A DNA stretch of 64,000 nucleotides from Naegleria gruberi (taxonomy: Eukaryota): assembly GCA_000004985.1 (NCBI GenBank), contig GG738889.1; one strand, given 5' to 3'. How positions within the stretch are numbered: the stretch's first letter is position 1; each line of letters opens with the position of its first letter. The notes below the pieces were generated by a model that saw only the letters and a list, made by a program, of their open reading frames with translations, was not told the origin of the DNA and did no database searches. The translations under genes and the position numbers were made by a program. Below, one piece after another: positions 44,487 to 63,974 of this stretch.

Positions 44487-47400
44487 TTACTCATCTCTTT
44501 CAAAGAATCTAGTTGATTCATTAATGACATTATGATGATTAGAATCTGAAATCTCACGATTCTTCTGACAACTTAATGTTACACTTATCAAAACAATAAC
44601 AATTAAGAAAACTGGAATAACAGCTGCTGCTCCAAACAGGAAAGAACTTATGCTAAACCAATCATCTCCTTGTTCAGAATTCCATAAATCGAGACTGAAT
44701 GTTCTAATTTCGCCTGGTTTAAGAATGATCTTGGTAAAGTTTAGATTTTTCGTAGCATAATTTAGCGACATTGTCATTTCCACAATATTACTAATAAAGT
44801 AATCAGAGAATATTGCCTGTGGATATAATGTGACTGGTTTTGAATGAATTAAACTTTCTTGGGCTTCATAAATATGTTGAAGTCTGAGAGCAGTAAATCT
44901 TTGGTTAGGTGTAGTAACATTATTTCTGGTTTGAAGTGAAAGAAGGTGAATGTTTGATGGCAACTCATTGAGGAATCTCGATTCAGAATTGAATTTTCCA
45001 ACATAGGTAAGGACAGCCTCTTTAATGTCGCTATCAGTGGCAAGTGAGGCGTACAATGAAATAGAGTTAGAAAACATTCTCAAAGCAGGGGCATTGAATA
45101 ATTTTGAAATGGTTGGTCTATAATTACTCGAGTCAGATGGTGGAGCTAAAAGAATTCTTAATGGAATAGTAACTGTTTGCGTTACATTAAGATTTTCACC
45201 TAAACCACGATCGTCATCAGTTAAAGTGTTTCTGTTCAACATGAATTCAATTGATCCATTTCTAAGACTTGCAACTCCTGCTGCTTGTCTGGTGAATAAC
45301 GTTAATTGGATATCATTTGATCTGATGAATGATGATTCCACTATTGGATAGTAGTTACCAGCAATTTTGTTAAAGAAGTAGCTATCATTAAATCTTGATG
45401 GTGCATACGGACGTTCAATCATTTCATACCCATTGCTGTCTGTGTAAAGAGTTGTTTGTACATCTCCTAAACTGAACTCGGTGATCATTTCCTTATTATC
45501 TCCTGTTTGAGCACTTGTAGACATGTCTAATACAAAGCCATTTTCTGGAATGTTATATTCATTGTAAATCACAAAAGTTTGAGTGACATTGTTTGTATAT
45601 CTCTGGCTCAATGATTGAACAACTTTTCCATTGGAAATAATACAATCAAGATATTCAGTTTCGAACACTAAATCTTGTGCATAACCTGTTGTTCTCAAAA
45701 TATAGGCACCATCTCCATAAGAGACGTATTGGGCAATCTTTTGTGAAATTGTAGTGGTTGTTCCAGTATATTTGTTAGTAATAGATTTGAGGACGTATGG
45801 AAGTTTTCCATTTGTCAACTCAAATGTTGCCTTGATGTAACCATTTTCCATATTCACAACATTTTCATATTGTGTTTGCTTCTTTTCAATTGTTGTTGCT
45901 TTAAAGTCTTGTTGAATTATGAAATAGGTTGAGAATCCGACAGGAACTACAGAAGCTTTAAAGTAAAGATAGGTGGTTCCATCAATTTCCTTAACTACAT
46001 CAGAATCTATTTGTGTTACATCTCCAGTTTCTCGTGAGTAATAATAAACAGAAATAGAGTTGGCCTTGACTGGAATTTTGATATATTCTTGGGTTGTCCA
46101 TCCAAGAGAGTTGAATAGGGTGAGAGCATAGATTGGTTTCTTTTCATCTAGTAACAGGGATTGGTCGAGAGAAACATTTAGCAAATCTTTTGTAACACCT
46201 CTAGTTGCTACATATTCGAAAATCAAAGAAGTCTTATTCTTTAGGGCAACAGTTGCATTTTGAATAATATCCGTATAGTTTTTAAGAACAAATCTCTTTT
46301 CAGTACCTGTTATGGCATCATGATGCAGTGCTAAAGCCACAGAATTTCTCATATATTGCAATGCTTCTTCAGCTTGATTGAGATCTTTTTCAATATTTCT
46401 ATTGAGACTTGTCTCAACCTTATAAAGTTCACTTTGACAAGCTGTAAAGATCATTTCACAATTTCTTAAAAGTCTTTCGCTTTCTCTAACTAATTGTTTA
46501 AATTGAGGTTCAGACACGAAATATCCACTCCAATAGGCAATACAATCACCAAATTGATCCTCATCGACTCCCCAACAAGTTGGATATGGGAAGTAGTCGC
46601 TATAGGAATCACTGTTATATGTTTTTACAGGGAATACATTTGGATTGGTTTTGTTATGGACTTGTTCAAAATATTCTGAGAGAGTAGAATATCTCATATT
46701 AACACCAAATCTTTGGAAATTCTTGTTAATGTAAGAAATAAGTAAATCCATATTGTCAAACATGAGATTTGCCTTTTGGAATCTGAAATCGTTTCCAAAT
46801 GGTATCAACACGTTGTTGGTTCTGTAGGTCTTGGAAACGTTTCTCATGTAATCAACAAGTAAGGAAGCTCTTGCATCAATATTTTCATTAGTTATTGGAG
46901 GATTGCTTGCAGGGTCAGATTCAAAATCAAAACCTGTACACGTTCCGTCATTGAAACAAATTTCTGGTGCACTGTAATGATGTTCTAAAACATGTGTGAA
47001 AATGCATGAATTTGGATCTGAATGTGAAGGACACCATTCCCATTCGAAATGCTTTTCAATAGCATATGTTCCACTTCCAGGAATTTCCCTATATTTATGT
47101 TTCAATCTTTCATCAATTCTATCAACAACATGATATTTGAATCCCATTTTAGATAATAAATAAGCAAAGGTACGAGAAGCTCCAAATGGATCAATTTGCC
47201 AACCAACTTGAATATCTGCTCCAATTACTTTTTGTACAAATTGATGACCTTGAGTCATTTGATCTATTATTGCAGAATAAGTAGGAAGGGCTTCATCTGT
47301 CATAACATATCCTCCATTCACTATTTCTATTTGTTTGTTATGAACTAATTTTTTGAATGCATCTCTCTGGGTCTGTGTACTATTATTCCACCACATTTCA

Positions 47401-47738
47401 AGGAAACCAGATTCTGACCAAATAAATCGTTTTTGTGGATCAGCATTCAAATACTTGATCACATTATCAATGATCACAGTTACATTATATTTCGAATAAA
47501 AGTTTACAGTCTCCAACCATCCCAAATCACAATGAGAATGAGCAACAATAAAAGCATTCACAACTGAATCCGAATTTTCTTTTAATTCATCAAATTCCAC
47601 TTCTTGATGCCTATTATTACTCTTTGCTTTAGCACATTCAACCCTATTCGGAATTTCCAGCCCCACAAATAATATTACAACAATTATTAATACTACTAAT
47701 ACATTAATATACAAAGGTCGCTTTTTTCCATTGACCAT
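44487..47738 (-). CDS. GH38 class II alpha-mannosidase (lysosomal type) with N-terminal signal anchor and C-terminal TM segment
   Basis: GH38 N-terminal motifs AHSHCDLGWLET and RFIWSESGFLEMWW; central and C-terminal GH38 domains. ATG at 47738 precedes a hydrophobic stretch LYINVLVVLIIVVILFVGL. A second hydrophobic segment lies near the C-terminus. Confidence 0.85.
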   Translation of the reverse strand: MVNGKKRPLYINVLVVLIIVVILFVGLEIPNRVECAKAKSNNRHQEVEFDELKENSDSVVNAFIVAHSHCDLGWLETVNFYSKYNVTVIIDNVIKYLNADPQKRFIWSESGFLEMWWNNSTQTQRDAFKKLVHNKQIEIVNGGYVMTDEALPTYSAIIDQMTQGHQFVQKVIGADIQVGWQIDPFGASRTFAYLLSKMGFKYHVVDRIDERLKHKYREIPGSGTYAIEKHFEWEWCPSHSDPNSCIFTHVLEHHYSAPEICFNDGTCTGFDFESDPASNPPITNENIDARASLLVDYMRNVSKTYRTNNVLIPFGNDFRFQKANLMFDNMDLLISYINKNFQRFGVNMRYSTLSEYFEQVHNKTNPNVFPVKTYNSDSYSDYFPYPTCWGVDEDQFGDCIAYWSGYFVSEPQFKQLVRESERLLRNCEMIFTACQSELYKVETSLNRNIEKDLNQAEEALQYMRNSVALALHHDAITGTEKRFVLKNYTDIIQNATVALKNKTSLIFEYVATRGVTKDLLNVSLDQSLLLDEKKPIYALTLFNSLGWTTQEYIKIPVKANSISVYYYSRETGDVTQIDSDVVKEIDGTTYLYFKASVVPVGFSTYFIIQQDFKATTIEKKQTQYENVVNMENGYIKATFELTNGKLPYVLKSITNKYTGTTTTISQKIAQYVSYGDGAYILRTTGYAQDLVFETEYLDCIISNGKVVQSLSQRYTNNVTQTFVIYNEYNIPENGFVLDMSTSAQTGDNKEMITEFSLGDVQTTLYTDSNGYEMIERPYAPSRFNDSYFFNKIAGNYYPIVESSFIRSNDIQLTLFTRQAAGVASLRNGSIEFMLNRNTLTDDDRGLGENLNVTQTVTIPLRILLAPPSDSSNYRPTISKLFNAPALRMFSNSISLYASLATDSDIKEAVLTYVGKFNSESRFLNELPSNIHLLSLQTRNNVTTPNQRFTALRLQHIYEAQESLIHSKPVTLYPQAIFSDYFISNIVEMTMSLNYATKNLNFTKIILKPGEIRTFSLDLWNSEQGDDWFSISSFLFGAAAVIPVFLIVIVLISVTLSCQKNREISDSNHHNVINESTRFFERDE

Positions 47739-48187
47739 CACCAATGGAAGCCTTGAAGAGTTGGTTGTAATAGGATGAAAATTTCCCGCCAAGCTCGAGA
47801 GATGAAAACATTTTTTTTTAATTGATTTGATCAAGTTTTGTATTTTTTGAATTGTTTTTAAAAAGGATTTGTTTTTAAATTGTGTATTGTTTATAACGAG
47901 AAAATAGTATTTCCTTAAAGGGTTATCTGAATATTTTAATAAATTAATATTTATAGATTGAAGAATATTTTACAAAATTAAATAATTAAATGTTTATGAA
48001 ATAGAGCAATTTGTTAATTGGAATAGAATAAATTCCGACTATTGTCTTTAGTTACACCTAGGTGGCCATGTTAGGAATTATGGAGGCCCATTTTCCTAAA
48101 TAGTCTTTTAATTCCCATTTAGAAACCAGAAAAATCAACAATTTATAATCAATTTCACATTTCACAATCAAAAAAAAAATAAAAGCA

Positions 48188-49328: not shown

Positions 49329-52300
49329 ATGAGTCAACTTGGAGAGGATTCTTTTCCTGCTGCTAATGAAGGCGATTACTTGCCGATCATTAAACCCTCA
49401 ACCGATAGGAGAGATTATAAAATTATAAAATTGGCTAATGAATTGGAAATAATTTTGTGTCATGATCCTGAGGCTTTAATTGCCTCCGCAGCTATGAATG
49501 TAAAAGGTAATTAGAAATTTAATAACATGTTTTGGAGTGATGATGATGGTGATGGTGGTGGAATGTAATAGTTGGTCATATGAGTGATCCGAGTGATTTT
49601 CCAGGTATGGCCCACTTTGTTGAGCACATGACCTTTATTTCGAGTAAAAAGTATCCAATCGAGGGTGAATATAAGGATTTTCTGAAGAAACGTGGAGGAG
49701 CAACCAATGCATCGACCTCCGCTGAAAAGACAACCTATTATTTTACAATATCGAATGATTATTTGGAAGAAGCTTTGGATAGATTTGCTCAATTTTTCAT
49801 TTCTCCAACATTTTCTGAACATCAAATCAATAGAGAAGTCGAGGCAATTAATAGTGAATTTAAAAAGAATTTACAATTGGAAGAAAGAAGACTCTATCAA
49901 TTGATGAAAAATTCGTCAAATCCACTGCATCCATTTAGAAAATTTGGAACTGGAAATACAATTTCATTGAAAACCGAACCTGAAATGAAAAATTTAAACT
50001 CGAGAGAGCACATGATTGAATTTTTTGAAAAATACTATTCTAGTAATCAAATGAAATTATCAATTATTGGAAATTATCCATTTGAAATATTAGAACAATG
50101 GGCAAGAAATTCATTTTCTGAAATACGAAACAATAATATGCAAACATACAAGTATTATCCAAGTTCAGTTGAGCCATTTAACAATGAAAATCTGGCCAGA
50201 TTATACAAATATATTCCAATATCTGACAGTCCTGTTCTCACCATCATGTTCCCCATCAATATTTCATATCCTGTTGAGGAGATGGGAAGAAATATGTACT
50301 ACAAACAAAGCTCGATAACTATGCTCAACAACTTGCTAGGTCATGAAGGTAAAGGATCTCTTTATTCTAAATTTCGAGCTGAAGGACTGGCTCAAAGTGT
50401 AGAGTCATACTATTACAGTTATGGAGGTGTTAGTGATCCAAACACATCTTTTTATTTCCTAATTGTTAAAGTCGAGTTGACAAAAAAGGGAGAAGATAAA
50501 TGGCAATCAATGATAGAGGATATTTTCGAATATATCAGCATGTTGAAAAAGGATGGAATACCAAAATACTTTTTTGATGAACTTAGTCAAATGAAAAAGC
50601 TAGCCTTTGAGAATGCTCAGTTTACCTCCACCCATGCCTCTAATTTGGCATCGAGTCTTCAACTTCACCTTCCACATGAAGTCATATCTGCTAACTATCT
50701 TATTTATGAGTTGGATGAGGTTGATATTTCAAATGTGTTAGGACAATTACATGCAGAAAATATGAACATTTACATTTGTAGCAAGTCCTTTGCACAAGAT
50801 GAATTGAAACATACAGAGAGATGGTATGATATCAAGTACTCTACAGATAGATTGGATTTTGATTTTCTGAATTTATTAAAGATGAGTAAGATTAATTGCT
50901 CCAAAGAGTTACACCTTCCACCACAGAATATATATGTGCCTTATAATTTGGAACTTGTGGAGGAAGAATCTACCGTATATCCTGAAAAGATTGTAGATGC
51001 TGACACTATTCGAACTTGGTTCAAGAAGGATGATTACTTTAAAACTCCAAGAGGTGACATTATTGCTAACATTATCGTACCACAAAGCTATTCAGATCCA
51101 TCCAATGCTGTAATGGTTCAATTATTTTGTGATATGGTACAATATTCATTGAATGAAGAGTTATACATGATCAAACTTGCAAAAATTTCCACTGAAATTG
51201 AAATGAACAAGAGAGGTTTAGCGATTTCAACATCAGGTTTCAGTAATCATTTGGAAGATGTCATTTATGTAATGTTAAGAGAAATTGTGCACATGTTCGA
51301 TAATGTTGATACATGTTTTACTGAAAAAATGTTTGATTACATCAAGGAAAATAATGTTAGGTATTATCAGAACCAAAAGTTTAAGAGACAACCATATCAA
51401 TTTGCTAGTTCAGAATACATCAATTTCTCTTTGAGGGCATTTGATTATTCATATGAGGAGTTTGCGAATGCTTTAGAAAAAATTACACTGGAGCAATTCA
51501 AAGGATTTGTTAAATTTTGGAGTTTGACAATGACAGTTGAGTGTCTTATTCATGGTAACTTTAAAAAGGATTTGGCAATGAGACTATCTGATAATATAAC
51601 TAGAATTTTATTTGAAGAAAGAAACAAAAGACCAATGACGCCTCTCCCTTGTCAGGATTTACTTACCAATGTAGCTATTTATCCACCGAATAAGGATCTT
51701 GCTTTAGTAATTCCAAATCCAAATGAAACGAACGAAAATAGTGCAATTCTTTCCTGTTTCCATATTGGCCCGAGATGTATGAGGATGGATTGCATTTTGG
51801 AGCTTTTTGCACAAGTATCAAGTAGCAAATATTTCCAATATATGAGAACAGAAAATCAATTTGGATACATTGTTAGCAGCTATCAACAAATGATCCACAA
51901 TGCCTCCTTCTTTGCTTGTGTAGTTCAAACAGTTAAAGATGATTTGTATCACATCTTCCATGAGAATGATTTATTCTTTGAAAAATTTGGTAACCATTTG
52001 GAGGAAATTACAGATGAAAAGTTTACCGAAATTATTGAATCAATCATTTCCAAAAACTTGGAAAAAGAAAAGACAATGGCTCAACGATCCTCTCGATACG
52101 ATATTGAAATATACAGAAAGCAATACAGATTTGATAGATACCAACTGAAAGCTGAGGAATTTAAAACAATAACCAAGGATGATCTCATTAACTTTTATAG
52201 AGATTATATTTTGAAAAGTGGAAAGAATTTTGCAAGGGCTAGCTTTATTGTAACAAAGAAGGATTTGATTATTACATTCCCAGAAGAGAAAAACATTGAG

Positions 52301-52366
52301 CTCGTCAGAAATAAGGAAAATTTCAAACTAGGCCTATCATATCATCCACATTTCATTTATTATTGA
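49329..52366 (+). CDS. M16A zinc metalloendopeptidase (insulin-degrading enzyme / insulysin-like), 2 exons
   Basis: Inverzincin motif HFVEH...E. After removal of the 65-nt intron at 49507-49571 (GTAATTAG...GTAATAG), SAAMNVKVGHMSDPSDFPGMAHFVEHM aligns with IDE [27 protein letters not shown]. Four M16 domains follow. The stop codon is TGA. Confidence 0.85.
49507..49571 (+). other. 65-nt spliceosomal intron
   Basis: GTAATTAGAAATTT...GGAATGTAATAG. Splicing recreates the conserved IDE N-terminal active-site region. Confidence 0.75.
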
Positions 52367-52939: not shown

Positions 52940-54584
52940 TTAATGTGAATATTGCATGTTTGGGGATTTTTCAGAATTTAACAAGGAATCGTTCTCTTGA
53001 TTGGTTGTTGCTGATGTTTCAGAATCATTTGATGTTTCTTTTTCCGAATGTTCATCCTTCTTTCGTTTAAATAATCTAGCTCCAATAGTGTTGAACATTT
53101 CCAAAAAATCAATTTCCACAATCGAAATTCCAGTCAAAATTAACATGACTAGTGCTATTGAGAATGTGGTGAGTAGTGCATTTGTAACCTCTTTCGCTGG
53201 AACACTTCTTGCAATAGTTAATAAGAACGATACATCAAGGATAATTGTAATGAAAATTGATAATGCTATCATTTTTCCAGTCTATTGTAAATTCCAATTG
53301 TTTCAATTATTCATAAATCTCTTAAAAACTTACACCTGTTTGGAAAATATTAATATCTGAAACCTTTTTCAAAGCCAAATGCATCCAAATCAATTGAAAT
53401 GTCATTACTAATACAGTGAGGGCACATATAGAAACCATGAAATAACTTGTAGCTTTCATATTTGTTATTATATCCACTGCACTGATTCCCATTAATCCAA
53501 TAACAAGTATAGCAAAGACAGCACCAATCAATATGTTAAGTCCATTCTTTGGCTTGGTATGGGTAATGGCATACACTACAGTGACATACTTGTTTCTCGA
53601 CATGACAACTAGTGCCATAAATGTGAATAGTATCGCAAAGGCAGTGAAAATATTTGCAACCCCATAAATATCGAACACTTCCAACATTACTGAAATAAAT
53701 AACATGAAAGATCCAGATCCTGTCAGTAGTAATACTACACTCTTTCCCTTAGTATTTCTATTATAGAATTCTATTGCTCTATAGGGAAAGATGATCAATG
53801 CAAGCAAATTGAATGAAACTGTGAGGATCAATTTGAAAGCCATCAATCCGTAATTGATAAAAATGTCAACTTTAGATGAAAGGCATCTCAATGAAAACAT
53901 ATCACTCTTTGAACAATAGCATCCATATACATATGGAAAAAAATTATCATTTTCCTTTTTCATTACTACTGGAATCCCCAACTCTTCAAGTCCACAAAAA
54001 AACTTTGATTTTGGAAAGTTGTCAATCACAAAACCAACCTGTCTGAAATAACTATTTTCTGTTTTTGCATTTACCTTATTCAAATACCTATCACTTCCAC
54101 AATAGAAACAATAATTAATCCATTGATAAGTATCAAATCCAGTTTCCTTCAAATATTTCTCTTCAAAATCTGACACGTAAAACTGAAAGCTTGTTTGGTT
54201 GAATAAATTCTTGCATTGATATTTCTCATTACTTGCCTCCCAAATCCTCATCGATCGACAAATATCAATTTCATCTCCCAAAGTCGGAAAGGAAAACAAC
54301 AAATCATAGCTTAATGTATTTCTTCCGATATCAAACATAATTGTCTTGGGAATGATAGCACTCGAACAGAATAATTCTAATTTATCTTTATAATCGATAT
54401 AGGTGTACGGAGATCCATAATCAAATGATGATATACGTTCTGATGAATTACATTGAAACTTGGCATTATTAAATGTTGGCAATGAGCAGTGAGTAATGGA
54501 TGCAGCACCGATAAGTATTAACATCAAGAGAGTGGGTATTTTCGGATCAAAAATGTTATTTGTGAATGGATGACGAAAGGGCAT
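52940..54584 (-). CDS. 7-TM receptor-like protein with Cys-rich extracellular N-terminal domain, 2 exons
   Basis: Signal peptide, a ~230-aa ectodomain with about 14 Cys, then five TM helices in exon 1 (53334-54584). A 52-nt intron at 53282-53333 (GTAAGTTTTT...TACAATAG) joins it to exon 2 (52940-53281), which carries two more TM helices and a Ser/Thr-rich tail. Confidence 0.6.
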
Positions 54585-54708: not shown

Positions 54709-56379
54709 TTATTCTTCATCAGAGTCAACATCAAATTCCATTTCTTCCTCATCAGGTAAATACTCACTTTCTAAAAAGCTATCATTACAAAAGAGTAATT
54801 TAGACGAAAATCCAACATCTTCCAAAGCATTTACCATAACCTTCAATTGAGATTCCAACTCTGTTAGTCTATTCGAAAACTCTGAATGAGAATTCAGTAA
54901 TAAGGCACTATCTGCCTTTTTAAGAATTTCCACAGTTTCCAAATGTATTTCATCCTCACCCACAAGATCTTGATAATTCTGAATGTATTGTTTGATTTCA
55001 TTGAGTCTTCTCTCTTGAACTGCTCTTACATCTGGTAGAATAAAGTCAAGAAAACTTTCAGAGTTTACATTTTCAATTAGTTCTGCTAGTTTTTCCTCAT
55101 CGTCTGGATTGGAATAGACATGAATGAATTGTTGTTTCAAATCGCTCACATATTCTTTCAATAGTGGATCTGAATTGAAATCTGATTCCATTTTATCTAT
55201 CTTTCTAAATATTAGTGACAGCATGTCACTTCTTGGACGAGCATACAAATGAAATGATTTGTCCAATTTGAATGAAACTTCAACAAGTGGGAAACTATTC
55301 TCGAGTACATATTTCAAAAAACCAGAATCCGCATTTGATCCATAATGTGAATGAAGAACTTGAATACTGTTCAATGATTGGAAATTGATATCAATATTTT
55401 CACCATTTGTAAATCTAGCAAAACATTCTGAAATGGCTAAATGTTCCAAAGAGGGAAAGAAGTGTGCAACCATAGCCATAATTTGTGTCATTGACATTTC
55501 TCCCTTAATGTCCTTAAGACAAAGTTTCTTGGCATTTCTAAACACCTTGCATTCTGAAAAGTCCATTTCTTCAATCACTAAGGTTCTACAATCTGCTGCT
55601 ACTGAACTAAATTGATGAATGTGGTTCAGGTGCATCTTTTCGGCTGAGTATCGAATTGTGGCATTCGAAAAGTTTAGTGCTAAACAAGTTATGCATGATT
55701 GGAGCTTTTCAATGAGCCTATTTTCTTCCAGCTCAAGAATTGAATTCTTGAATATTAACTTTAATTTCTTGCCAAATCTTTGTTCTAAATCCACTTGTAG
55801 AGACCTAATGGTATCGTATAAAATGCACGGACCTTGTGTGGTAATGCTTTTTAAATTTGGTGAAAGAATTAGAGATTTTCTTACATCATGAGCAATCAGT
55901 GATGGTTCTTCCACCAATTTACAATAGCTTATGGTTAAATGTTGAATATGACTGTCAGGGTTCAACAAATTCCAAATGTCATCTTTTGACAAGCAATAAA
56001 TATTCCTTAATTCCAAGCCTGTACATTGAGCCATCAGTTTAGCACCTCCTAAAGGCATCTTTTCTAAATTGTCTACTTTTAAATATTTACAATTCTCACT
56101 TTCCAGATTTCTCATATTTCCATTTACAATTTTACAAACAAATTCGAAATCTCCTTTTTCAACAGCCAACAAGTTTTTTCTCGACCGTAAAACATAAGCC
56201 ATCATTGAATCATCTATCAACCTCAAAGATTTGAACAGATGAAGTGTTCTGATCAAGGATTCATCTTCTATGAAGGTCATGATCAAGACCCAAACATCAC
56301 CAACTAATTGAGGATGAGATTTTGTTTTTGAATTACGTGGCGAGTTTGTTTTGAAAAACTTGGTTAATCGTGTTAACAT
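54709..56379 (-). CDS. F-box-like / LRR (RNI/AMN1-type) protein with acidic C-terminal tail
   Basis: N-terminal QLVGDVWVLIMTFIEDESLIRTLHLFKSL is F-box-like, followed by cysteine-containing LRRs. C-terminal EEEMEFDVDSDEE. Confidence 0.55.
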   Translation of the reverse strand: MLTRLTKFFKTNSPRNSKTKSHPQLVGDVWVLIMTFIEDESLIRTLHLFKSLRLIDDSMMAYVLRSRKNLLAVEKGDFEFVCKIVNGNMRNLESENCKYLKVDNLEKMPLGGAKLMAQCTGLELRNIYCLSKDDIWNLLNPDSHIQHLTISYCKLVEEPSLIAHDVRKSLILSPNLKSITTQGPCILYDTIRSLQVDLEQRFGKKLKLIFKNSILELEENRLIEKLQSCITCLALNFSNATIRYSAEKMHLNHIHQFSSVAADCRTLVIEEMDFSECKVFRNAKKLCLKDIKGEMSMTQIMAMVAHFFPSLEHLAISECFARFTNGENIDINFQSLNSIQVLHSHYGSNADSGFLKYVLENSFPLVEVSFKLDKSFHLYARPRSDMLSLIFRKIDKMESDFNSDPLLKEYVSDLKQQFIHVYSNPDDEEKLAELIENVNSESFLDFILPDVRAVQERRLNEIKQYIQNYQDLVGEDEIHLETVEILKKADSALLLNSHSEFSNRLTELESQLKVMVNALEDVGFSSKLLFCNDSFLESEYLPDEEEMEFDVDSDEE

Positions 56380-56554: not shown

Positions 56555-57756
56555 TTATGCATCACCAAGAATAGGTGTGTTTGCAAATTTATATCTGGTT
56601 CCTGTATGACGTTTCTTAATACTAATATATGAATCCAGGTTATCCTTGAAGGTTAGTATGATTTGGTTCATTAAGAAATTACAGAATGGAGATTGTACAG
56701 GTTTAGTTGAATGGGATTTACCTTTATGCTCCGCAATAGATCGAAAGTATGTTTGTTTGTCAGCATTTTCAATGATAGTGATTGGATATTTACCCCTCAA
56801 CAAGACATAGTTCATTAATAATCTAGATATTCTTCCATTCCCATCTTTGAATGGATGAATTTGAACAAAATTGTAATGGATAAGGCAAGCTTGTTTGATT
56901 GGATGGGAATTCATGAATGATGCAGAATTAACATATTGAATAAACTTCCTCATGAGACCTGGAACTTCATTAAAATCAGCTAACAACACCTTTTCAAAGC
57001 CAATTGCAACATTGACTTTTCGGTACGCTCCATTTTCTCTTAATAAATACATCATTAGAGTGATGCATTTGTTGAATGTTTTCCTCACTTAATGTTTCAT
57101 TTTGTTCAATATATTTAAGGATATAATCAAATGCAGTTTTGTGATTCATTACTTCCAAAAATTGTATATATGAAGTTTCTTTGGCAGCAACCTCAGAAAG
57201 TATTTGACTTGTTTGAGAAAATGAAGCAGTGCAACCTTCAATGGCATTTCCATGGTAAATAAATCTTGCCAGAGTGTCATTGGCAAGGATTTCTTTCATA
57301 TCAAAGTTAAAGCTCTGGGACAAATCTTCAACAACAGCTAAATCATTTTCATCTTAAACCAATAAGAAATAAGAAAAAGTAAAGCCTACCCAATTCAATT
57401 TCTGAAGGATGTTGAAACAAACTGGCATAACCTTGATATATTGCACCATCCTCAACCAATTCATAAAAATTGGAAGTACTTCTAAACGGTTCGTACAGCT
57501 TTTTCATCTCTTCTTCTCTCCAAGTCTCTGCCTCATAAAATAGTTTAAATTGGTTCCTTTGTTTCAGTAGCTTGTCGGAATCAACATATTCCTGAGTACT
57601 TTCGTAAGTATAAAACACAACAATGCTTAATAAAAGTATCACGACCACTCCACAAATATACAACACAATATTATCTTTTCGAATTGTTTTCTTGGTTTTT
57701 GGTACCGAAGTTTTCTTGTAGTTTGTTTTCCTTACTATATTTCCCTTGCTTATCAT
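56555..57756 (-). CDS. Fic-domain protein with N-terminal TM anchor; frame disrupted in the last exon (possible pseudogene or sequence error)
   Basis: Exon 1 (57390-57756) carries the TM anchor. A 37-nt intron (GTAGGC...TTTAAG) leads to exon 2 (from 57352), which has the Fic N-terminal helix FIYHGNAIEG...IQQMHH. The core motif HPFKDGNGRISRLLMNYVL and the upstream GAYRKVNVAIG lie in the +1 frame from ~57035 onward. No intron of sensible size joins the two frames. Confidence 0.55.
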
Positions 57757-57982: not shown

Positions 57983-59080
57983 CTAGTTCTTCAGTGGTGT
58001 TTCAGATATTGGTCTGTAAGGATTCGATGTGGAGACAGTAGTTTCTGGTACATAATTCTGAATAAAAATGGCCATATCCAACCATAATTCCAAACATTGA
58101 ACAGCATGTAAGTTATCAAATTCCTTCATGTAGAGAAAATATTTGGGCACTATTAATGTTTGATTATTGATGACTTGCTCTTCAAATTTAGCCTCCAAAA
58201 CGAACAGAAAGGCAACTTTTTGTAGGTATAACAACCCCTCCACTTTGCTGTACTTTTCCATTTGTTCCTTTTTTAAACGAAAGTGTTTCATGTTTTCTCT
58301 GAAAAAGTTATTTAAATCCAAGTGAATAACATCTTACCTTAGTAAACTCTTCATACAAATAATCAATTTCTGGCCGTCTGTTCCTGGATTGTTCCACTTC
58401 ACTGGATGGTCGATTGCCTTATCTTCCCTTATCAAAAATCTACTTTCTTCAGTTTGCAAAAACCCATCATTTCGTACTTTAATTAGAGGCAACTCATCAC
58501 ATAAACAAACTGAATGTTGTTTGTCCCTGATCATATTCTCCTATTAGCATTTCTATTAATAAGAAACTTACCCATTCAAACTGATATTGTTAAAATTTGA
58601 ACATAGTGCATTAAATAGACTATTAATGGCTGAAGACACTACCATGTCTCCCAAAGGTTCTCTTCTTTTATAAATATCGAACAACTTTCGTGTCGAACAT
58701 AACAACTCCATAACTGTCCCAATACTGGCTCTGCACCCTTCAAAAGAGGATTCGAGCTCTAGCTTTAAACTTTCAAACTTTTCCCAGCTATCTTTCTCTT
58801 GGTAAATGTCGGTAATCCTTTCCAAACTTTCCTTTGGGAATGAAAAATCAGGTTTCCAACTCATAGGTGTAATGTCGAGTGTTGAGAAGAAAGGTGCACT
58901 TTCTTTTGCCCAATAGGGAAGATCCTGATTTTCGGAAATGATTGCTCTTTCACAAAATCTCACAAAAGCCTCAAGTTTTCCTTCATCTTCCACAATTCCC
59001 TTAATTACTTGTTGTAGACTTTGCTTTAGTCCCTCCTTGCTGTCTTCTTCTGCTCTTTCGATGAGTTTTCTCTTTGGCAT
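57983..59080 (-). CDS. hypothetical protein (~338 aa), 3 exons
   Basis: Exons 58572-59080, 58338-58526 and 57983-58298. Introns of 45 nt (GTAAGTTTCT...ATGATCAG) and 39 nt (GTAAGATG...TTTTTCAG), both 3n and both containing in-frame stops. Phases are consistent and the total is 1014 nt. Confidence 0.55.
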
Positions 59081-59265: not shown

Positions 59266-62200
59266 CTAAAAGCCAAATGGTTTCATGTAAGAAATGATAA
59301 GATTAATATTATCTAAGAAATTAGCTGATAATTCATCGATCAACTGTTTGAATGGTCCAAATAAGTTCTTATTACGCAGATATTCAGCTAACTCATTGTA
59401 AATCATTCTCTCCATCAATATTATTAAACCTAATACTCTTTGGAAAGATTTAGGATAATAGTGGCTTCTTTCTAAATGTCCCTCATTATCCACATAAATT
59501 TTGGAAGGAGATGAACTCTCGAAAACATGTCCAATAAAAGCATCAAATGCTGCTGTCTGCAAGAGAATATCTTTGAATGATTGAGATTTTGATGTTGTAA
59601 AGTCAGAGAGCTTAGAATTTTTACCCCCAACTCTTTGTGAGTGAATTGGAGAAACAAGACTAAACCCTTTTCCAAAAGCAGTGGGGAAATTTCTAACCCT
59701 ACGATTTGTGTAAGGAACATTAATCCAAAATCTGTTCACATCAATAAAACTGTTGATAATCAAGTTAAATAATTGATCTAATGGTGAATATTCCAATTCC
59801 AATACTTCCCCACTCTTGAACTGCAGTATTACATTGGATATGGAAAACTTTTGAACAGAAGGAATAACTGTCATTACCTCATCATGCATGCTGTAAAATG
59901 GTATGAATAGTGGTTTGGAAAATTCACCGTTCATACCTCCCGTAGTTAATTTCTCAATTGAGTCCAAAAAGAGACATTGATTTTGAATGATTTCCTTTTC
60001 CTCAGTATTAATCATTGACATGTATTGGGAAAGTATAAATTTGCTGATTGGATGTCGATGTGATTCCACTTTCAGCAACCAGAAAAATTGATTTCCAATA
60101 ACTTTGGATGTAAGAGATCTTCTTACAAGATATTGAGTCAGTACTCCATTAACACTATCAAACTTGATACAATTTGTGAGATAAGGTAGCAATACCAAAA
60201 AATCTTCATCAGTGGTATCTTGCAGCATTTCTGTAATTGTAAGTTTGATAAAAACACTGTTGGAAACACTTTCTGATAGAATTCTCAATAGTTTCATCAC
60301 GTGTTGTGGTTTTTTCCATTTAGATACATATTGTTTGGCCAAATATACAGCCCATGGATTTTGAAATGGTATACTTCTCAAAAATGGTACAATCTTGTCT
60401 GGATTACTAATGTTAACATCCTTTTGTTTCCATTCCTTCATAGAAGGTAAATCATTCAATGTTAAGTTCATTGGTTCAACTCTATTAAAAAGAACAATTT
60501 GTGTTTCCTCATAAACTTCCAAAGATTCTTTAAACTTCAGTGGTGGTATTTTCTCTATTTCATACATGACCGAATGCTCATAATTCTCGAATGAAACGTC
60601 AACAGAAAATGTTGTATCAATACCGTCTATTGTGGTATCTTTGGAAAATAATTTAACATTTCCTTGTTGTAGCTCCAAATTTGAATCGAAAACTGGGCAT
60701 TCTACTTTTGACACGTATTTTCTTTTAGTTATTCCAGTAATAGGGTTTACCATTAAGCAGAATAGTGTTAATTCTATCATTCCATCACAAGAAAGGTCTG
60801 ATATACGAATGTTATCAAAACTAATTTCCTCATTCCATTCCAAACAATCCGAATGTGGTATACACTTGGTATATTTTCTCTCACTGGTCTCGTTGCTATA
60901 TATTTTGCATTCAATTACAAAAGAAAGAGTACTGAAAGGTTTGAAGTCTGTGTGAAAGTATGATATTCCCTGTATACCCTTGATGAAAATTTTCAGATTC
61001 TTATCAAAATCGAAAGAGCAAATGGCACCGTCCTTCTTTGCAATGTCAGTAGTTTGAGTGATTAAAGAATTTAAAAACTTGAAATATGGTTCAACATCAT
61101 TTTCGTGTTCAATATTCATCTTGGTTGGTGCACAATCAACCTCTATATTTTTCTTCGATCCTAAAGAAAGTAAAAGTCCTCTTTCAACATTCTTCATCAA
61201 GTTGATTTTGACAATTAAAGTTTTAAGGGAAGGTAAACCTTCTAAAATTGGTATGATACCCTCAGTCAAAGGGTTGGCAGAAATATTAAGCCTTGTTAAG
61301 TTTTTCCATTCACATTCACTCATAAGCTCTGTAAAATTCCTCGTATCCATATTAATTGAAGAAATATCCAGAGAGGTCAACCCTTCCAGTTTACAAATTT
61401 TGGATATTAATCCTTTTCCAAATGAATGGCCATTTACAGTTAAACATGTCAGGTGGAGTGGCTTGATTTCATTTGAACTGTAGATATTTTCCCAAAAACG
61501 TTTGCTCATATTATTTAAAGTAAGTGATTTTAGATTTTTGAATTCACACTTTTCAAAATTCTCAAATCCATTAGTTTGCACATCATCAAGAGCCAAATAC
61601 TCCAAGTTTTCTGAAAAGTTTTCAATATTAGTATAGCAGTGTGTTATGGAGAGTTTTTTCAATCCCAAAGGAAGAATGGATGTTTCTATTGTGATATTTC
61701 CTTCTAAATCTAATGATTCGAGATTTTCAAAATCCAACCTGGGAAGAGGTGATATTCTTTCAAAACGATCACTGTATATAGCCAGTGATCTAATTTGTGG
61801 TTTGATAGAAAGCATCTTATCTACCAAATATGAAGTATATGCAAAATCAACTTTCAACTCGACAAGATTAGGTAGTCTTTCCCTGCTCTCTAACAAATAT
61901 TGATAATCATATTTGACGTATATTCTCTAACATCCAAAGACTTTAACTTTGAAAATTTGTCAATAATTAACTTTAAACCACTCGAGCTGAATTCATTTCT
62001 TCTCAAACTCAAATATTCCAAAGCATTTGCATTCATGGAAGAACACACTCTTTCAATCTCACTATCTGTTAAATGACAACCAACAGCCGAAAACTTTTTA
62101 ATAGAAAAATAATAATCATCAGCCTGATGATCAAGTAATAACTTAGAAAATTCCTGTTTTGAAGTAAACTTCAATCGGAGATGAACTAATCTTCTCACAA

Positions 62201-62300
62201 CCAGCCATCTCTTACAAACTTGCGAAGTAATCAAAAAGACAAACTTTGCATGAAGAAAGGAGAAAATTTCGGCAATAATTTCCTCTGGCAATTGATTCAT
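59266..62300 (-). CDS. F-box + LRR + Vps34-like (C2 / PIK-helical / PI3K-fold) pseudokinase, 2 exons
   Basis: Exon 1 (61932-62300): F-box LPEEIIAEIFSFL...VCKRW. A 44-nt intron at 61888-61931 (GTTAGA...TTAGAG) shifts frame into exon 2 (59266-61887). Exon 2 has LRRs, a C2-like segment (CLEWNEEISFDNIRISDLSCDGMIELTLF), PIK-helical FFWLLKVESHRHPISKFILSQYM, and a kinase-fold with FKSGEVLELEY...FWINVPYT in which GDRH is replaced by IGHVFE and DFG by SHYY. Confidence 0.6.
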
Positions 62301-62486: not shown

Positions 62487-63388
62487 TTAGGCATATTTAA
62501 TCATTAGAATGATGAATATTAAAATTGATATCAGAATACAAGCAATAATTGAAATAACGGTCACTACTCTACACATCATTCGATTCTTGGTGCTTTTTGC
62601 TTGATAAACAAATGTCTGAGAGTCACTGTTCAAATCAGTAGTTTTCTGAGATAGGTCTCTAGTAGATTCCATATTTACAATAATCTTATCAATGTTGGAA
62701 ACCATGATTTTCTTAACATCTTCAATTTGAGATTGAATCAGCACAATTTTATCATTTTCCACTCGTGTACAATAATCCAATTGTTGACCAAGTAATTTTT
62801 CCACCTTTTTGTAAAAATCTTCGTGTAATCTTTGATTATTTGATTTGAAAATTTCATAATTTATACTTTGCAATAATTTAATAAATTCATTTTTCACTCT
62901 ATCCAATAATCCAAAACAAATTCTCAAATGAGTACTATAATAATTCCATAATTTAAATTCCACAATAAATTCACCACATACCTCTCCTCTGCAATGCAAA
63001 CATAGAAATAAAATCTTCCATTGAAATGATGTTCCAAAACATGAATCTGTTGAGTGGCAATTTGAAATGTTGTTTTAAAAATTGAACTAGCAAGAGATGA
63101 ATCATTAAATTGATTGAGATCAGTTCTCTGTTTTTCCACAACTTTAAAACAAGTAGACCTCAGATTTTCTGTTGTTTTCTGTAATTGTGGTCTGAGAGCA
63201 GCATCACCATGAAAATATATTTTAGAATTTTGTGGTGTTGCCAAATAATTATTTTCCATAGATGGACCAGGACGTGAAAACACAGCGACCATGTGAATAT
63301 CGTGGTAATTGTTATTGGTGTTGGATTGATGTTCACTTGATCCTCCTCCAAGTATTGGAGTCCTTTCCGAAGCATTGTTTCTACTCAT
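62487..63388 (-). CDS. longin-domain R-SNARE (VAMP7/synaptobrevin-like), 2 exons
   Basis: Exon 1 (62982-63388) is a longin domain (KIYFHGDAAL...FYFYVCIAEE). A 47-nt intron at 62935-62981 (GTATGTGGTG...TATTATAG) leads to exon 2 (62487-62934), with the SNARE heptads VKKIMVSNIDKIIVNMESTRDL and the C-terminal TM VVTVISIIACILISILIFIIL. Confidence 0.75.
62935..62981 (-). other. 47-nt spliceosomal intron
   Basis: GTATGTGGTGAATTT...GGAATTATTATAG. It joins the longin domain to the SNARE motif in phase. Confidence 0.7.
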
Positions 63389-63536: not shown

Positions 63537-63974
63537 TTAGAGAAAGTTAAAGTTATTGTTATTCATGTACAGAATGGATTGTTTAACCTGACCAATTATA
63601 TCTGCATATTCATTCTTCATGAATTGTTCGCATTCCTTAATTGGACCAGTCAAAGAATAGGAGAGGTCTGAAGTACCTTTTGTTAGTCTCAAACTACTTG
63701 TTTTAGAAACCTTTTTCAAAAGAATGGGTAATCCCATTTCTCTTTCAGTCCCGTTAGTAAACGAGATCTGAACAGTCTTTTCTAAGTATTTCTTCATCTC
63801 GACATCAAAAGTTCTAAAGGCCTCTTCTACCTTTTCCATTCTAACTCCTCTAATATAAAACATTTTAGTTTGATCGCTATGATCAATATAAACACCGATT
63901 GGTAGTTTCATAGTGGTGATGTATCTTGTTAGGTTTTGAACTACATCAACAGGAAGTGAATCAGATGGGATCAT
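63537..63974 (-). CDS. hypothetical protein (145 aa)
   Basis: ATG-initiated single ORF at the window edge; no domain recognised. Confidence 0.35.
   Translation of the reverse strand: MIPSDSLPVDVVQNLTRYITTMKLPIGVYIDHSDQTKMFYIRGVRMEKVEEAFRTFDVEMKKYLEKTVQISFTNGTEREMGLPILLKKVSKTSSLRLTKGTSDLSYSLTGPIKECEQFMKNEYADIIGQVKQSILYMNNNNFNFL

What the first reader, a model, noticed from the sequence alone, without database searches (positions are those of the whole stretch)
59266..62300. F-box/LRR protein fused to a Vps34-like C2-helical-PI3K-fold module with degenerate catalytic motifs
The N-terminus has a clear F-box followed by LRRs, which is the architecture of an SCF substrate receptor. The C-terminal ~550 aa run collinear with class III PI3K (Vps34): a C2-like segment (WNEEISFDNIRISDLSCDGMIELTLF, compare the Vps34 C2 region), a PIK helical segment (FFWLLKVESHRHPISKFILSQYM, compare the Vps34 helical domain), and a kinase-fold (FKSGEVLELEY...FWINVPYT, compare FKVGDDLRQD...LDLKLTPY). 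The catalytic-loop GDRHxDN and activation-loop DFG positions read IGHVFESSSPSK and GHLERSHYY, so the lipid-kinase chemistry is almost certainly lost. An E3-ligase adaptor attached to a PI3K-shaped pseudoenzyme is not a described architecture that I know of. It could act as a decoy or scaffold that targets Vps34-complex partners for ubiquitylation.
Basis: partly seen in the sequence, partly recalled or inferred. Interest (0 to 1): 0.75.

Follow-up and report, generated by a model that had tools for sequence, protein, structure and literature searches.

The report
F-box/LRR protein with dead PI3K scaffold
In the amoeba Naegleria gruberi, a ubiquitin-ligase adaptor (F-box plus leucine-rich repeats) is attached to the non-catalytic C2 and helical domains of a class-I-type PI3K, but the proposed intron is more likely a one-base frame break and the claimed dead kinase fold could not be shown.

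Summary
The window is Naegleria gruberi NEG-M. On the minus strand at 59266-62300, Pfam finds an F-box, leucine-rich repeats, a PI3K-type C2 domain and a PI3K helical (PIK) domain. All but the repeats score above Pfam's curated cut-offs. AlphaFold models the C2 and helical parts at pLDDT about 85-95, and they match PI3K structures (Foldseek E about 2e-20).

- **The intron.** The 44-nt intron (61888-61931) has off-consensus splice sites. It would delete residues that two paralogs encode without interruption. A one-base frame break near 61896-61913 fits better and gives a 1011-aa protein.
- **The Vps34 link.** The module is closest to class I/II-type PI3Ks, not Vps34.
- **The kinase fold.** The last 225 aa show no detectable similarity to any kinase domain in Pfam, hhalign, a custom HMM, a global profile test or a PDB search. 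The catalytic motifs are absent, but retention of the fold is unproven.

The protein belongs to a three-locus family found only in N. gruberi. GenBank splits this locus and a second one into separate F-box and "PI3K" models. The most likely role is an SCF-type adaptor that uses a dead PI3K scaffold for binding or membrane targeting. This copy could also be a recent pseudogene.

The parts
62157..62297 (-). F-box (residues about 2-48; LPEEIIAEIFSFL...VCKRW)
   Evidence: Pfam PF00646 at 24.1 bits and PF12937 at 26.0 bits, both above cut-off. The N-terminal profile hits the F-boxes of FBXL17 (E 1e-6), SKP2 and FBXL2 in the PDB. GenBank annotates this ORF as a separate 136-aa protein, P0104, with the same two Pfam domains.
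61147..62102 (-). Leucine-rich repeat region, about 12 repeats (frame-corrected residues about 67-385). It spans the frame break.
   Evidence: Weak Pfam LRR hits (LRR_Zer-1, LRR_4, LRR_8). 38% identity to the LRR region of paralog P0003. Alignment with P0096 and P0003. PDB profile hits to LRR proteins at E 1e-8. In the frame-corrected reading the LxxLxL strands sit at 94, 119, 146, 170, 194 and 214 (the 146 motif LVELKV was read by eye).
61888..61931 (-). Judged not to be an intron but coding sequence that contains a frame break.
   Evidence: The sequence was read directly. Paralogs encode 20-21 residues here without interruption, and N130 and L136 are invariant. Credible introns elsewhere in the window use GTAAGT, GTATGT, GTATGA or GTGAGT donors, mostly with ATAG or TTAG acceptors. 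Splicing would leave a 12-residue LRR unit.
61896..61913 (-). Interval in which the reading frame must shift by one base. One candidate is the T-run at 61895-61897. ORF1's stop codon TAG lies at 61890-61892.
   Evidence: ORF1-frame residues (VREYTSN...) match the paralogs on the left and ORF2-frame residues (LLESRERLPNLVELK) match on the right. The exact base cannot be fixed from the sequence.
61350..61352 (-). ATG used as the start of the deposited 694-aa model XP_002673689.1 (P0001). The reading frame is open and LRR-coding for another 546 nt upstream.
   Evidence: P0001 equals residues 303-996 of the joined model. ORF extent.
60577..61029 (-). PI3K-type C2 domain (frame-corrected residues about 425-575)
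59944..60540 (-). PI3K helical (PIK, accessory) domain (frame-corrected residues about 588-786; GNQFFWLLKVES motif)
   Evidence: Pfam PF00613 at 65.2 bits, E 6.8e-18. phmmer and profile hits to p110gamma at 8e-6 and 6e-9. AlphaFold all-helical at pLDDT 85-93.
59269..59943 (-). C-terminal 225-aa region of unknown fold, in the position of the kinase domain. It has no catalytic Lys, no DRHxxN and no DFG.
   Evidence: No Pfam hit. hhalign probability 0.6%. HMM score equal to shuffles. Global profile z at most 1.1. No PDB hit. 24-33% identity among paralogs, so it is constrained. AlphaFold pLDDT 35-65 with canonical PI3Ks in the alignment and 25-45 without.
59266..59268 (-). Stop codon (TAG)

Best explanation
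The locus encodes, or until recently encoded, one protein of about 1011 aa. It belongs to a three-locus family seen only in Naegleria gruberi.

Domain order: F-box, about 12 leucine-rich repeats, a short linker, a PI3K-type C2 domain, a PI3K helical domain, and a 225-aa family-specific tail where the kinase domain should be.

Origin (inferred): the C2-helical part derives from a class-I-type PI3K catalytic subunit. Its adaptor-binding and Ras-binding N-terminus has been replaced by the F-box/LRR region, and its kinase domain has been truncated and degraded beyond recognition.

Shown: the protein has none of the PI3K catalytic residues, so it is not a lipid kinase.

Inferred mechanism: the F-box docks Skp1, so the protein acts as an FBXL-like SCF substrate receptor or Skp1 adaptor. 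The LRRs and the dead PI3K scaffold provide substrate or partner binding and possibly membrane targeting through the C2 domain.

Gene structure: the two ORFs in the window are not joined by the proposed 44-nt intron. They are one coding sequence interrupted by a single-base frame break near 61896-61913. This is either an assembly error or a real, recent mutation of this copy.
For: - Organism and annotation. P0001 and P0104 are the two deposited models on the same 348,446-bp scaffold.
- Family and architecture: the exhaustive search found only two close relatives, both N. gruberi. P0003 (963 aa) has LRR, C2, helical and tail in one model. P0096 (F-box plus LRR, EFC37601) immediately precedes P0002 (C2-helical-tail, EFC37602) on one 245,038-bp scaffold.
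- Frame break rather than intron: both paralogs read straight through (FS: KLKSLDVRE--YTSNMIINILLESRERLPNLVELK; P0096: NLKSLDIRRSKLSDNSICHELMNSKLSLPNLVELK; P0003: KLKSLDIMES-IIDNQEYYKLMNSKMSLPNLVNLL), with invariant residues inside the 'intron'. LRR spacing is regular only in the frame-corrected reading. GTTAGA/GAG differs from the donor and acceptor pattern of credible introns in this window.
- One transcription unit: ORF1 and ORF2 overlap, whereas neighbouring genes sit about 185 nt apart.
- Class-I-type origin.
- No catalytic capacity.
- Constraint on all parts: 24-49% identity among paralogs, and an 876-codon open frame in a 33% GC genome.
Against: - No transcript or read data were available. 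The frame break may be real, in which case this copy yields only a 136-aa F-box protein and is a pseudogene, or a split gene as GenBank annotates it.
- None of the three loci has a deposited model with the full architecture. Locus 2 is split inside the C2 domain, and P0003's model lacks an F-box.
- Skp1 binding, SCF assembly, substrates and lipid binding are all untested.
- The Pfam F-box matches cover only about 30 of 43-47 model positions.
- No orthologue was found outside N. gruberi, so conservation evidence rests on three paralogs.
Confidence: 0.6

Rival explanations
1. There are two exons joined by removal of a 44-nt GT-AG intron (61888-61931), giving a 996-aa F-box/LRR protein fused to a Vps34-like C2-helical-pseudokinase.
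Against: The donor GTTAGA has T at position +3, and the acceptor is a GAG lying 2 nt after a TAG. Both are off the local consensus. Splicing deletes 15 residues that align with coding sequence in two paralogs and leaves a 12-residue LRR unit. All statistical tests for kinase similarity fail. The kinase-like model is low-confidence and driven by its alignment. Class I PI3Ks are closer than Vps34.
Confidence: 0.12
2. Two independent genes, as in the deposited annotation: a 136-aa F-box protein (P0104) and a 694-aa 'phosphatidylinositol 3-kinase' (P0001).
For: The GenBank/JGI models. The two ORFs are in different frames.
Against: There is no intergenic space, because the ORFs overlap. The 540 nt between the two models are open and encode LRRs 38% identical to the paralogs. 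The LRR array runs across the boundary. Paralogs link F-box to LRR (P0096) and LRR to the PI3K-like module (P0003) within single models. P0001 has no kinase domain, so its name is wrong in any case.
Confidence: 0.08
3. A decaying pseudogene copy. The frame break is real, and the degenerate tail reflects loss of function rather than a new function.
For: The frame break. Loss of all catalytic motifs. Fragmentary models at all three loci.
Against: 876- and 136-codon ORFs stay open in a 33% GC genome where about 7% of random codons would be stops (own estimate). The paralogs retain 24-49% identity in every region, including the tail, and keep core C2 and helical residues. This implies long-term constraint on the family. 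At most, this one copy was inactivated recently.
Confidence: 0.2

Closest known systems
FBXL-type F-box proteins (SKP2, FBXL2, FBXL17, TIR1), the substrate receptors of SCF ubiquitin ligases
   Same: An N-terminal F-box with the LPxEI...IFSxL...VCKxW signature, followed directly by a leucine-rich-repeat solenoid. The profile hits the FBXL17, SKP2, FBXL2 and TIR1 chains.
   Different: About 620 further residues follow the LRRs, made of a PI3K C2 domain, a PI3K helical domain and an unknown tail. Two literature searches for this architecture turned up no F-box protein carrying PI3K domains. Skp1 binding is untested.
Class I PI3K catalytic subunits (p110 alpha, beta, gamma, delta) and protist class-I-type PI3Ks
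   Same: Collinear C2 and helical domains. These are the best sequence matches (p110gamma at 8e-6 by phmmer and 6e-9 by profile) and the best Foldseek matches (E 2e-20). The nearest database relatives outside the family are named phosphatidylinositol-4,5-bisphosphate 3-kinase.
   Different: There is no adaptor-binding or Ras-binding domain (an F-box/LRR region sits there instead). There is no recognisable kinase domain and no catalytic Lys, DRHxxN or DFG. The region after the helical domain is about 225 aa rather than about 370.
Vps34 (class III PI3K)
   Different: It is not the closest class by sequence. The first Vps34-type hit is at rank 77 of 95 (E 2.8e-4), against class I-type hits from rank 4 (E 1e-12). 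No Vps34 chain is among the top 60 PDB sequence hits.
Pseudokinases of the PI3K-related superfamily (for example TRRAP/Tra1; from general knowledge)
   Same: A family of lipid or protein kinase descent that has lost catalysis and serves as a scaffold.
   Different: Those proteins keep a recognisable kinase fold. Here retention of the fold is unproven and the region is much shorter.

Membership tests
F-box protein (SCF substrate receptor, FBXL class) | An F-box motif recognisable by the curated profile | tested here: met
   PF00646 at 24.1 bits (cut-off 20.5) and PF12937 at 26.0 bits (cut-off 24.3), residues 2-32. F-box hits to FBXL17 and SKP2.
F-box protein (SCF substrate receptor, FBXL class) | Leucine-rich repeats C-terminal to the F-box | tested here: met
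   Sub-threshold Pfam LRR hits. Profile hits to LRR structures at E 1e-8. Regular LxxLxL spacing of 20-27 residues.
F-box protein (SCF substrate receptor, FBXL class) | The F-box and the rest of the protein lie in one polypeptide at this locus | tested here: inconclusive
   The ORFs are in different frames. Paralogs argue for one coding sequence with a 1-nt break. No reads or transcripts were available.
F-box protein (SCF substrate receptor, FBXL class) | Binds Skp1 and assembles with a cullin | not testable with these tools
   This needs pull-down or two-hybrid experiments.
Phosphoinositide 3-kinase catalytic subunit | PI3K-type C2 domain | tested here: met
Phosphoinositide 3-kinase catalytic subunit | Helical (PIK) accessory domain | tested here: met
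   PF00613 at 65.2 bits, E 6.8e-18. It is also found in both paralogs.
Phosphoinositide 3-kinase catalytic subunit | PI3/PI4-kinase catalytic domain (PF00454) | tested here: not met
   No hit at E<=10 in any of the three paralogs. hhalign probability 0.6%. HMM score equal to shuffles. Global profile z at most 1.1. No PDB hit.
Phosphoinositide 3-kinase catalytic subunit | Catalytic residues: Lys of the FKxGDDLRQD motif, DRHxxN loop, DFG | tested here: not met
   In the forced MAFFT alignment these positions read S/Q/Y, FESSSPSK (P0003: IRKNDE) and ERSHY. No paralog keeps them.
Vps34 (class III PI3K) | Closest sequence relatives are Vps34 orthologues | tested here: not met
   Class I-type sequences rank from position 4 and the first GVGDRHLDN-type sequence ranks 77. 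The top PDB hits are p110 gamma, beta and alpha.
PI3K-fold pseudokinase | Retains the two-lobed kinase fold despite dead motifs | tested here: inconclusive
   The fold is kinase-like only in the model whose alignment held 26 canonical PI3Ks (pLDDT 35-65). The paralog-only model has pLDDT 25-45. The region is about 145 aa too short.
Spliceosomal intron at 61888-61931 | GT-AG boundaries, and removal restores the frame | tested here: met
Spliceosomal intron at 61888-61931 | Splice sites like those of other introns in this genome | tested here: not met
   GTTAGA and TTAGAG, against GTAAGT, GTATGT, GTATGA or GTGAGT donors and mostly ATAG or TTAG acceptors at ORF-joining sites in this window. The sample is small.
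Spliceosomal intron at 61888-61931 | The removed segment is not protein-coding | tested here: not met
   Two paralogs encode 20-21 residues here, with invariant N and L inside the segment. Removal breaks the LRR spacing.

The most novel reading that the evidence does not exclude
A lineage-specific family of SCF ubiquitin-ligase receptors has taken over the non-catalytic C2-helical scaffold of a class I PI3K, possibly with a remnant kinase fold. It would use this scaffold as a substrate-recognition or membrane-targeting module, so that ubiquitylation is directed to the membranes or partners that normally engage class I PI3Ks. This would be a direct structural link between the SCF and PI3K systems that is not described elsewhere.
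Probability: 0.3. Interest if true: 0.6.

Novelty: new variant of a known kind. Interest (0 to 1): 0.4.

Why it matters
- **Domain combination.** If the architecture is real and expressed, an F-box/LRR adaptor joined to a catalytically dead PI3K scaffold is a combination that two targeted literature searches did not turn up. It would be an example of a lipid-kinase scaffold reused for protein-protein or membrane recognition.
- **Annotation.** XP_002673689.1 is named "phosphatidylinositol 3-kinase" but has no kinase domain. It should not be counted in N. gruberi's PI3K complement. The 136-aa F-box model next to it is almost certainly part of the same gene. The pair XP_002670345/XP_002670346 needs the same correction.
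- **Limits.** The family is confined to one species, has three members and has no functional data, so its general significance is modest.

Tried and rejected
- **Paralog DNA.** P0001, P0003 and P0096 are not on record in the contig index. No paralog DNA or transcript contigs could be fetched, so dN/dS and inspection of the paralog junctions were impossible.
- **Word-indexed homology searches.** These returned only the deposited models of this locus and P0096. They gave no orthologues and no evidence on whether P0003 has an upstream F-box.
- **Kinase similarity of the tail.** Pfam at E<=10, hhalign, a custom HMM against 900 shuffles, a global profile-profile alignment against 500 column shuffles at each of four gap settings, and a PDB profile search were all negative. 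A first version of the global test was invalid because free end gaps allowed a trivial non-overlap. It was redone.
- **AlphaFold with paralogs only.** Confidence was too low to judge the tail. Foldseek on that model matched PI3Ks at E about 1e-4 with TM-scores consistent with the helical domain alone.
- **afdb50 fold search.** The library was unavailable.
- **Literature.** Searches for F-box/PI3K architectures, Naegleria PI3Ks and PI3K pseudoenzymes found no precedent.
- **Other splice combinations.** Alternative GT/AG pairs around the junction (listed) all remove even more conserved sequence.
- **tRNAs and tandem repeats.** None were found near the locus.
Full report
**What is in the sequence**

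The window is AT-rich (32-35% GC). Two overlapping minus-strand ORFs sit at the reported place: 61890-62300 (136 aa, ATG at 62300) and 59266-61896 (876 aa). The downstream ORF is 100% identical to Naegleria gruberi NEG-M XP_002673689.1, a 694-aa model named "phosphatidylinositol 3-kinase". That model starts at an internal ATG (61350) and omits 180 in-frame codons upstream. The upstream ORF is deposited separately as a 136-aa "predicted protein" with F-box domains (P0104). GenBank therefore treats the locus as two genes.

**Domains**

Residue numbers below are in that joined numbering.

| Domain | Pfam model | Score (curated cut-off) | Residues |
|---|---|---|---|
| F-box | PF00646 | 24.1 bits (20.5) | 2-32 |
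| F-box-like | PF12937 | 26.0 bits (24.3) | 2-32 |
| LRRs | several models | below cut-off | 94-365 |
| PI3K C2 | PF00792 | 28.7 bits (26.4) | 445-536 |
| PI3K helical | PF00613 | 65.2 bits, E 6.8e-18 (31) | 604-752 |

**The family**

An exhaustive HMMER search of 1.84 billion representative proteins with residues 513-996 found only two close relatives, both from N. gruberi:
- P0003, NAEGRDRAFT_52708, 963 aa, E 6e-45
- P0002, NAEGRDRAFT_74644, 529 aa, E 1e-45

All other hits (E 1e-12 and weaker) are ordinary PI3Ks that match only the helical domain. P0003 carries LRRs, C2, helical domain and tail in a single model.

A profile search also returned P0096 (NAEGRDRAFT_53605, 450 aa, F-box plus LRRs). 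Its accession, EFC37601/XP_002670345, is the one immediately before P0002 (EFC37602/XP_002670346), and both lie on a 245,038-bp scaffold. The second locus therefore also has an F-box/LRR model directly next to its PI3K-like model.

Taken together, the ancestral architecture of the family is F-box, LRR, C2, helical, tail. No single deposited model shows all of it.

**Intron or frame break**

The proposed 44-nt intron (61888-61931) is GT-AG and does restore the frame. Four observations argue against it.

1. Both paralogs encode 20-21 residues between the conserved anchors LKSLD and LPNLV. If the two frames are joined with one extra base, the window reads LKSLDVREYTSNMIINILLESRERLPNLVELK. This aligns with P0096 (LKSLDIRRSKLSDNSICHELMNSKLSLPNLVELK) and P0003 (LKSLDIMESIIDNQEYYKLMNSKMSLPNLVNLL). 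Invariant N130 and L136 lie inside the "intron".
2. In the frame-corrected protein the LRR strands fall at 94, 119, 146, 170, 194 and 214. Splicing would leave a 12-residue unit.
3. A scan of the window for GT...AG pairs that join long ORFs finds credible introns with GTAAGT (several), GTATGT, GTATGA and GTGAGT donors and mostly ATAG or TTAG acceptors, 39-77 nt long. One example is the 47-nt intron in the neighbouring SNARE gene. GTTAGA with a GAG acceptor 2 nt after a TAG fits neither pattern.
4. ORF1-frame residues match the paralogs to the left of about 61913, and ORF2-frame residues match to the right of about 61896.

I conclude that this is one coding sequence with a single-base frame break in 61896-61913. 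The frame-corrected product is 1011 aa. I cannot tell whether the break is an assembly error or a real mutation. The absence of any intergenic space (neighbouring genes are about 185 nt away) and the LRR-coding 546 nt upstream of the deposited start both argue against two independent genes.

**Which PI3K class**

By sequence, the closest solved structures are p110gamma, p110beta and p110alpha, followed by PI3KC2alpha. No Vps34 chain is in the top 60. Among the 95 significant database hits, catalytic loops are overwhelmingly DRHNDN (class I/II type) from rank 4 onward. The first GVGDRHLDN (Vps34-type) sequence is at rank 77. Of the ten nearest non-family hits (ranks 4-13), the two whose source gives a function name (P0004 and P0009) are called phosphatidylinositol-4,5-bisphosphate 3-kinase. 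The start of the C2 domain (FDFDKNLKIFIKG) aligns with the class I motif (WDCDRKFRVKIRG). Class I PI3Ks are known to exist in N. gruberi (PMC3823935, citing the genome paper). "Vps34-like" is therefore not the best description. The bare C2-helical layout results from replacement of the N-terminus.

**The kinase-like tail**

The 225 residues after the helical domain (59269-59943) occupy the position of the kinase domain but are about 145 aa shorter.
- No PF00454 match appears in any paralog at E<=10.
- hhalign of the three-paralog profile against 36 canonical kinase domains gives probability 0.6%.
- An HMM of those kinase domains scores the tails at -0.5 to -2.6 bits, within the range of 300 shuffles each.
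- A forced global, collinear profile-profile alignment scores z 0.4-1.1 at three gap settings and -0.4 at the most lenient, against 500 column shuffles at each of the four.
- A PDB profile search finds nothing relevant.

MAFFT, when forced, does lay the tail collinear with the kinase domain (PY, G-GF, QxF and EGhL positions). In that alignment the catalytic Lys, DRHxxN and DFG are all replaced in all three paralogs. The model built with canonical PI3Ks in its alignment folds the tail kinase-like and superposes on helical-plus-kinase structures (Vps34 2x6f with 368 residues aligned, PI4KIIIbeta with 309). That result comes at pLDDT 35-65 and is circular, because the canonical sequences drive the fold. 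A model built from the three paralogs alone gives pLDDT 25-45.

Loss of catalysis is therefore certain. Descent from a kinase domain is plausible on position alone. Retention of the fold is unproven. The tail is still 24-33% identical among the paralogs, compared with 37-49% for the C2 and helical domains, so it is under constraint.

**Mechanism**

Shown:
- the domain content
- the lack of catalytic residues
- the family architecture pieced together across the three loci

Inferred: the F-box recruits Skp1, and the LRRs plus the dead PI3K scaffold recognise substrates or partners, or target the complex to membranes through the C2 domain. This would make the protein an FBXL-like SCF receptor with an unusual C-terminal module. 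A Skp1-only, non-SCF role is equally open.

Nothing in the data points to Vps34-complex partners. This copy may be recently inactivated. I give that about 0.2, and about 0.6 to the main explanation.

**Novelty and score**

The sequences are already public but mis-annotated: split models, and a "PI3K" without a kinase domain. I found no description of an F-box/PI3K-scaffold architecture. It is a new variant of known kinds, confined to one species and without expression data. Interest is 0.4.

Noticed in passing
window 62487-63388 (-), intron 62935-62981: The upstream neighbour is an R-SNARE. Synaptobrevin PF00957 hits the ORF at 62487-62999 with E 2e-17. A second ORF at 62924-63388 is joined to it by a clean 47-nt intron, GTATGT...TTATAG. 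I used this as a local reference for real N. gruberi splice sites.
   Followed up: partly
window 56555-57088 (-): An ORF with a Fic/DOC domain (PF02661, E 1e-19). It may be one exon of a larger gene, because the candidate intron scan lists possible joins around 56890-57050.
   Followed up: no
window 61350-62300 (-): The deposited annotation splits the locus into P0104 (136 aa, F-box) and P0001 (694 aa, named phosphatidylinositol 3-kinase). Between them it leaves 540 nt of open, LRR-coding sequence unannotated. The PI3K name is misleading because no kinase domain is present.
   Followed up: yes
paralog locus on a 245,038-bp N. gruberi scaffold (P0096 = XP_002670345, P0002 = XP_002670346); not in the window: A second family member is also split into an F-box/LRR model and a C2-helical-tail model, this time inside the C2 domain, with about 60-70 C2 residues missing from both models. 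The third member, P0003 (XP_002671748), starts just after the position where the F-box should be. All three loci may need re-annotation, or all three may carry disruptions.
   Followed up: partly
window 49580-52366 (+) and 44487-47834 (-): Ordinary housekeeping neighbours: an M16 insulinase-type peptidase (four Pfam domains) and a GH38 alpha-mannosidase. Neither has any evident link to the finding.
   Followed up: no
window 58568-59080 (-), 63537-63974 (-), 53322-54584 (-), 54709-56379 (-): Four sizeable ORFs with no Pfam match at E<=0.001. The first lies 185 nt downstream of the target gene's stop codon.
   Followed up: no
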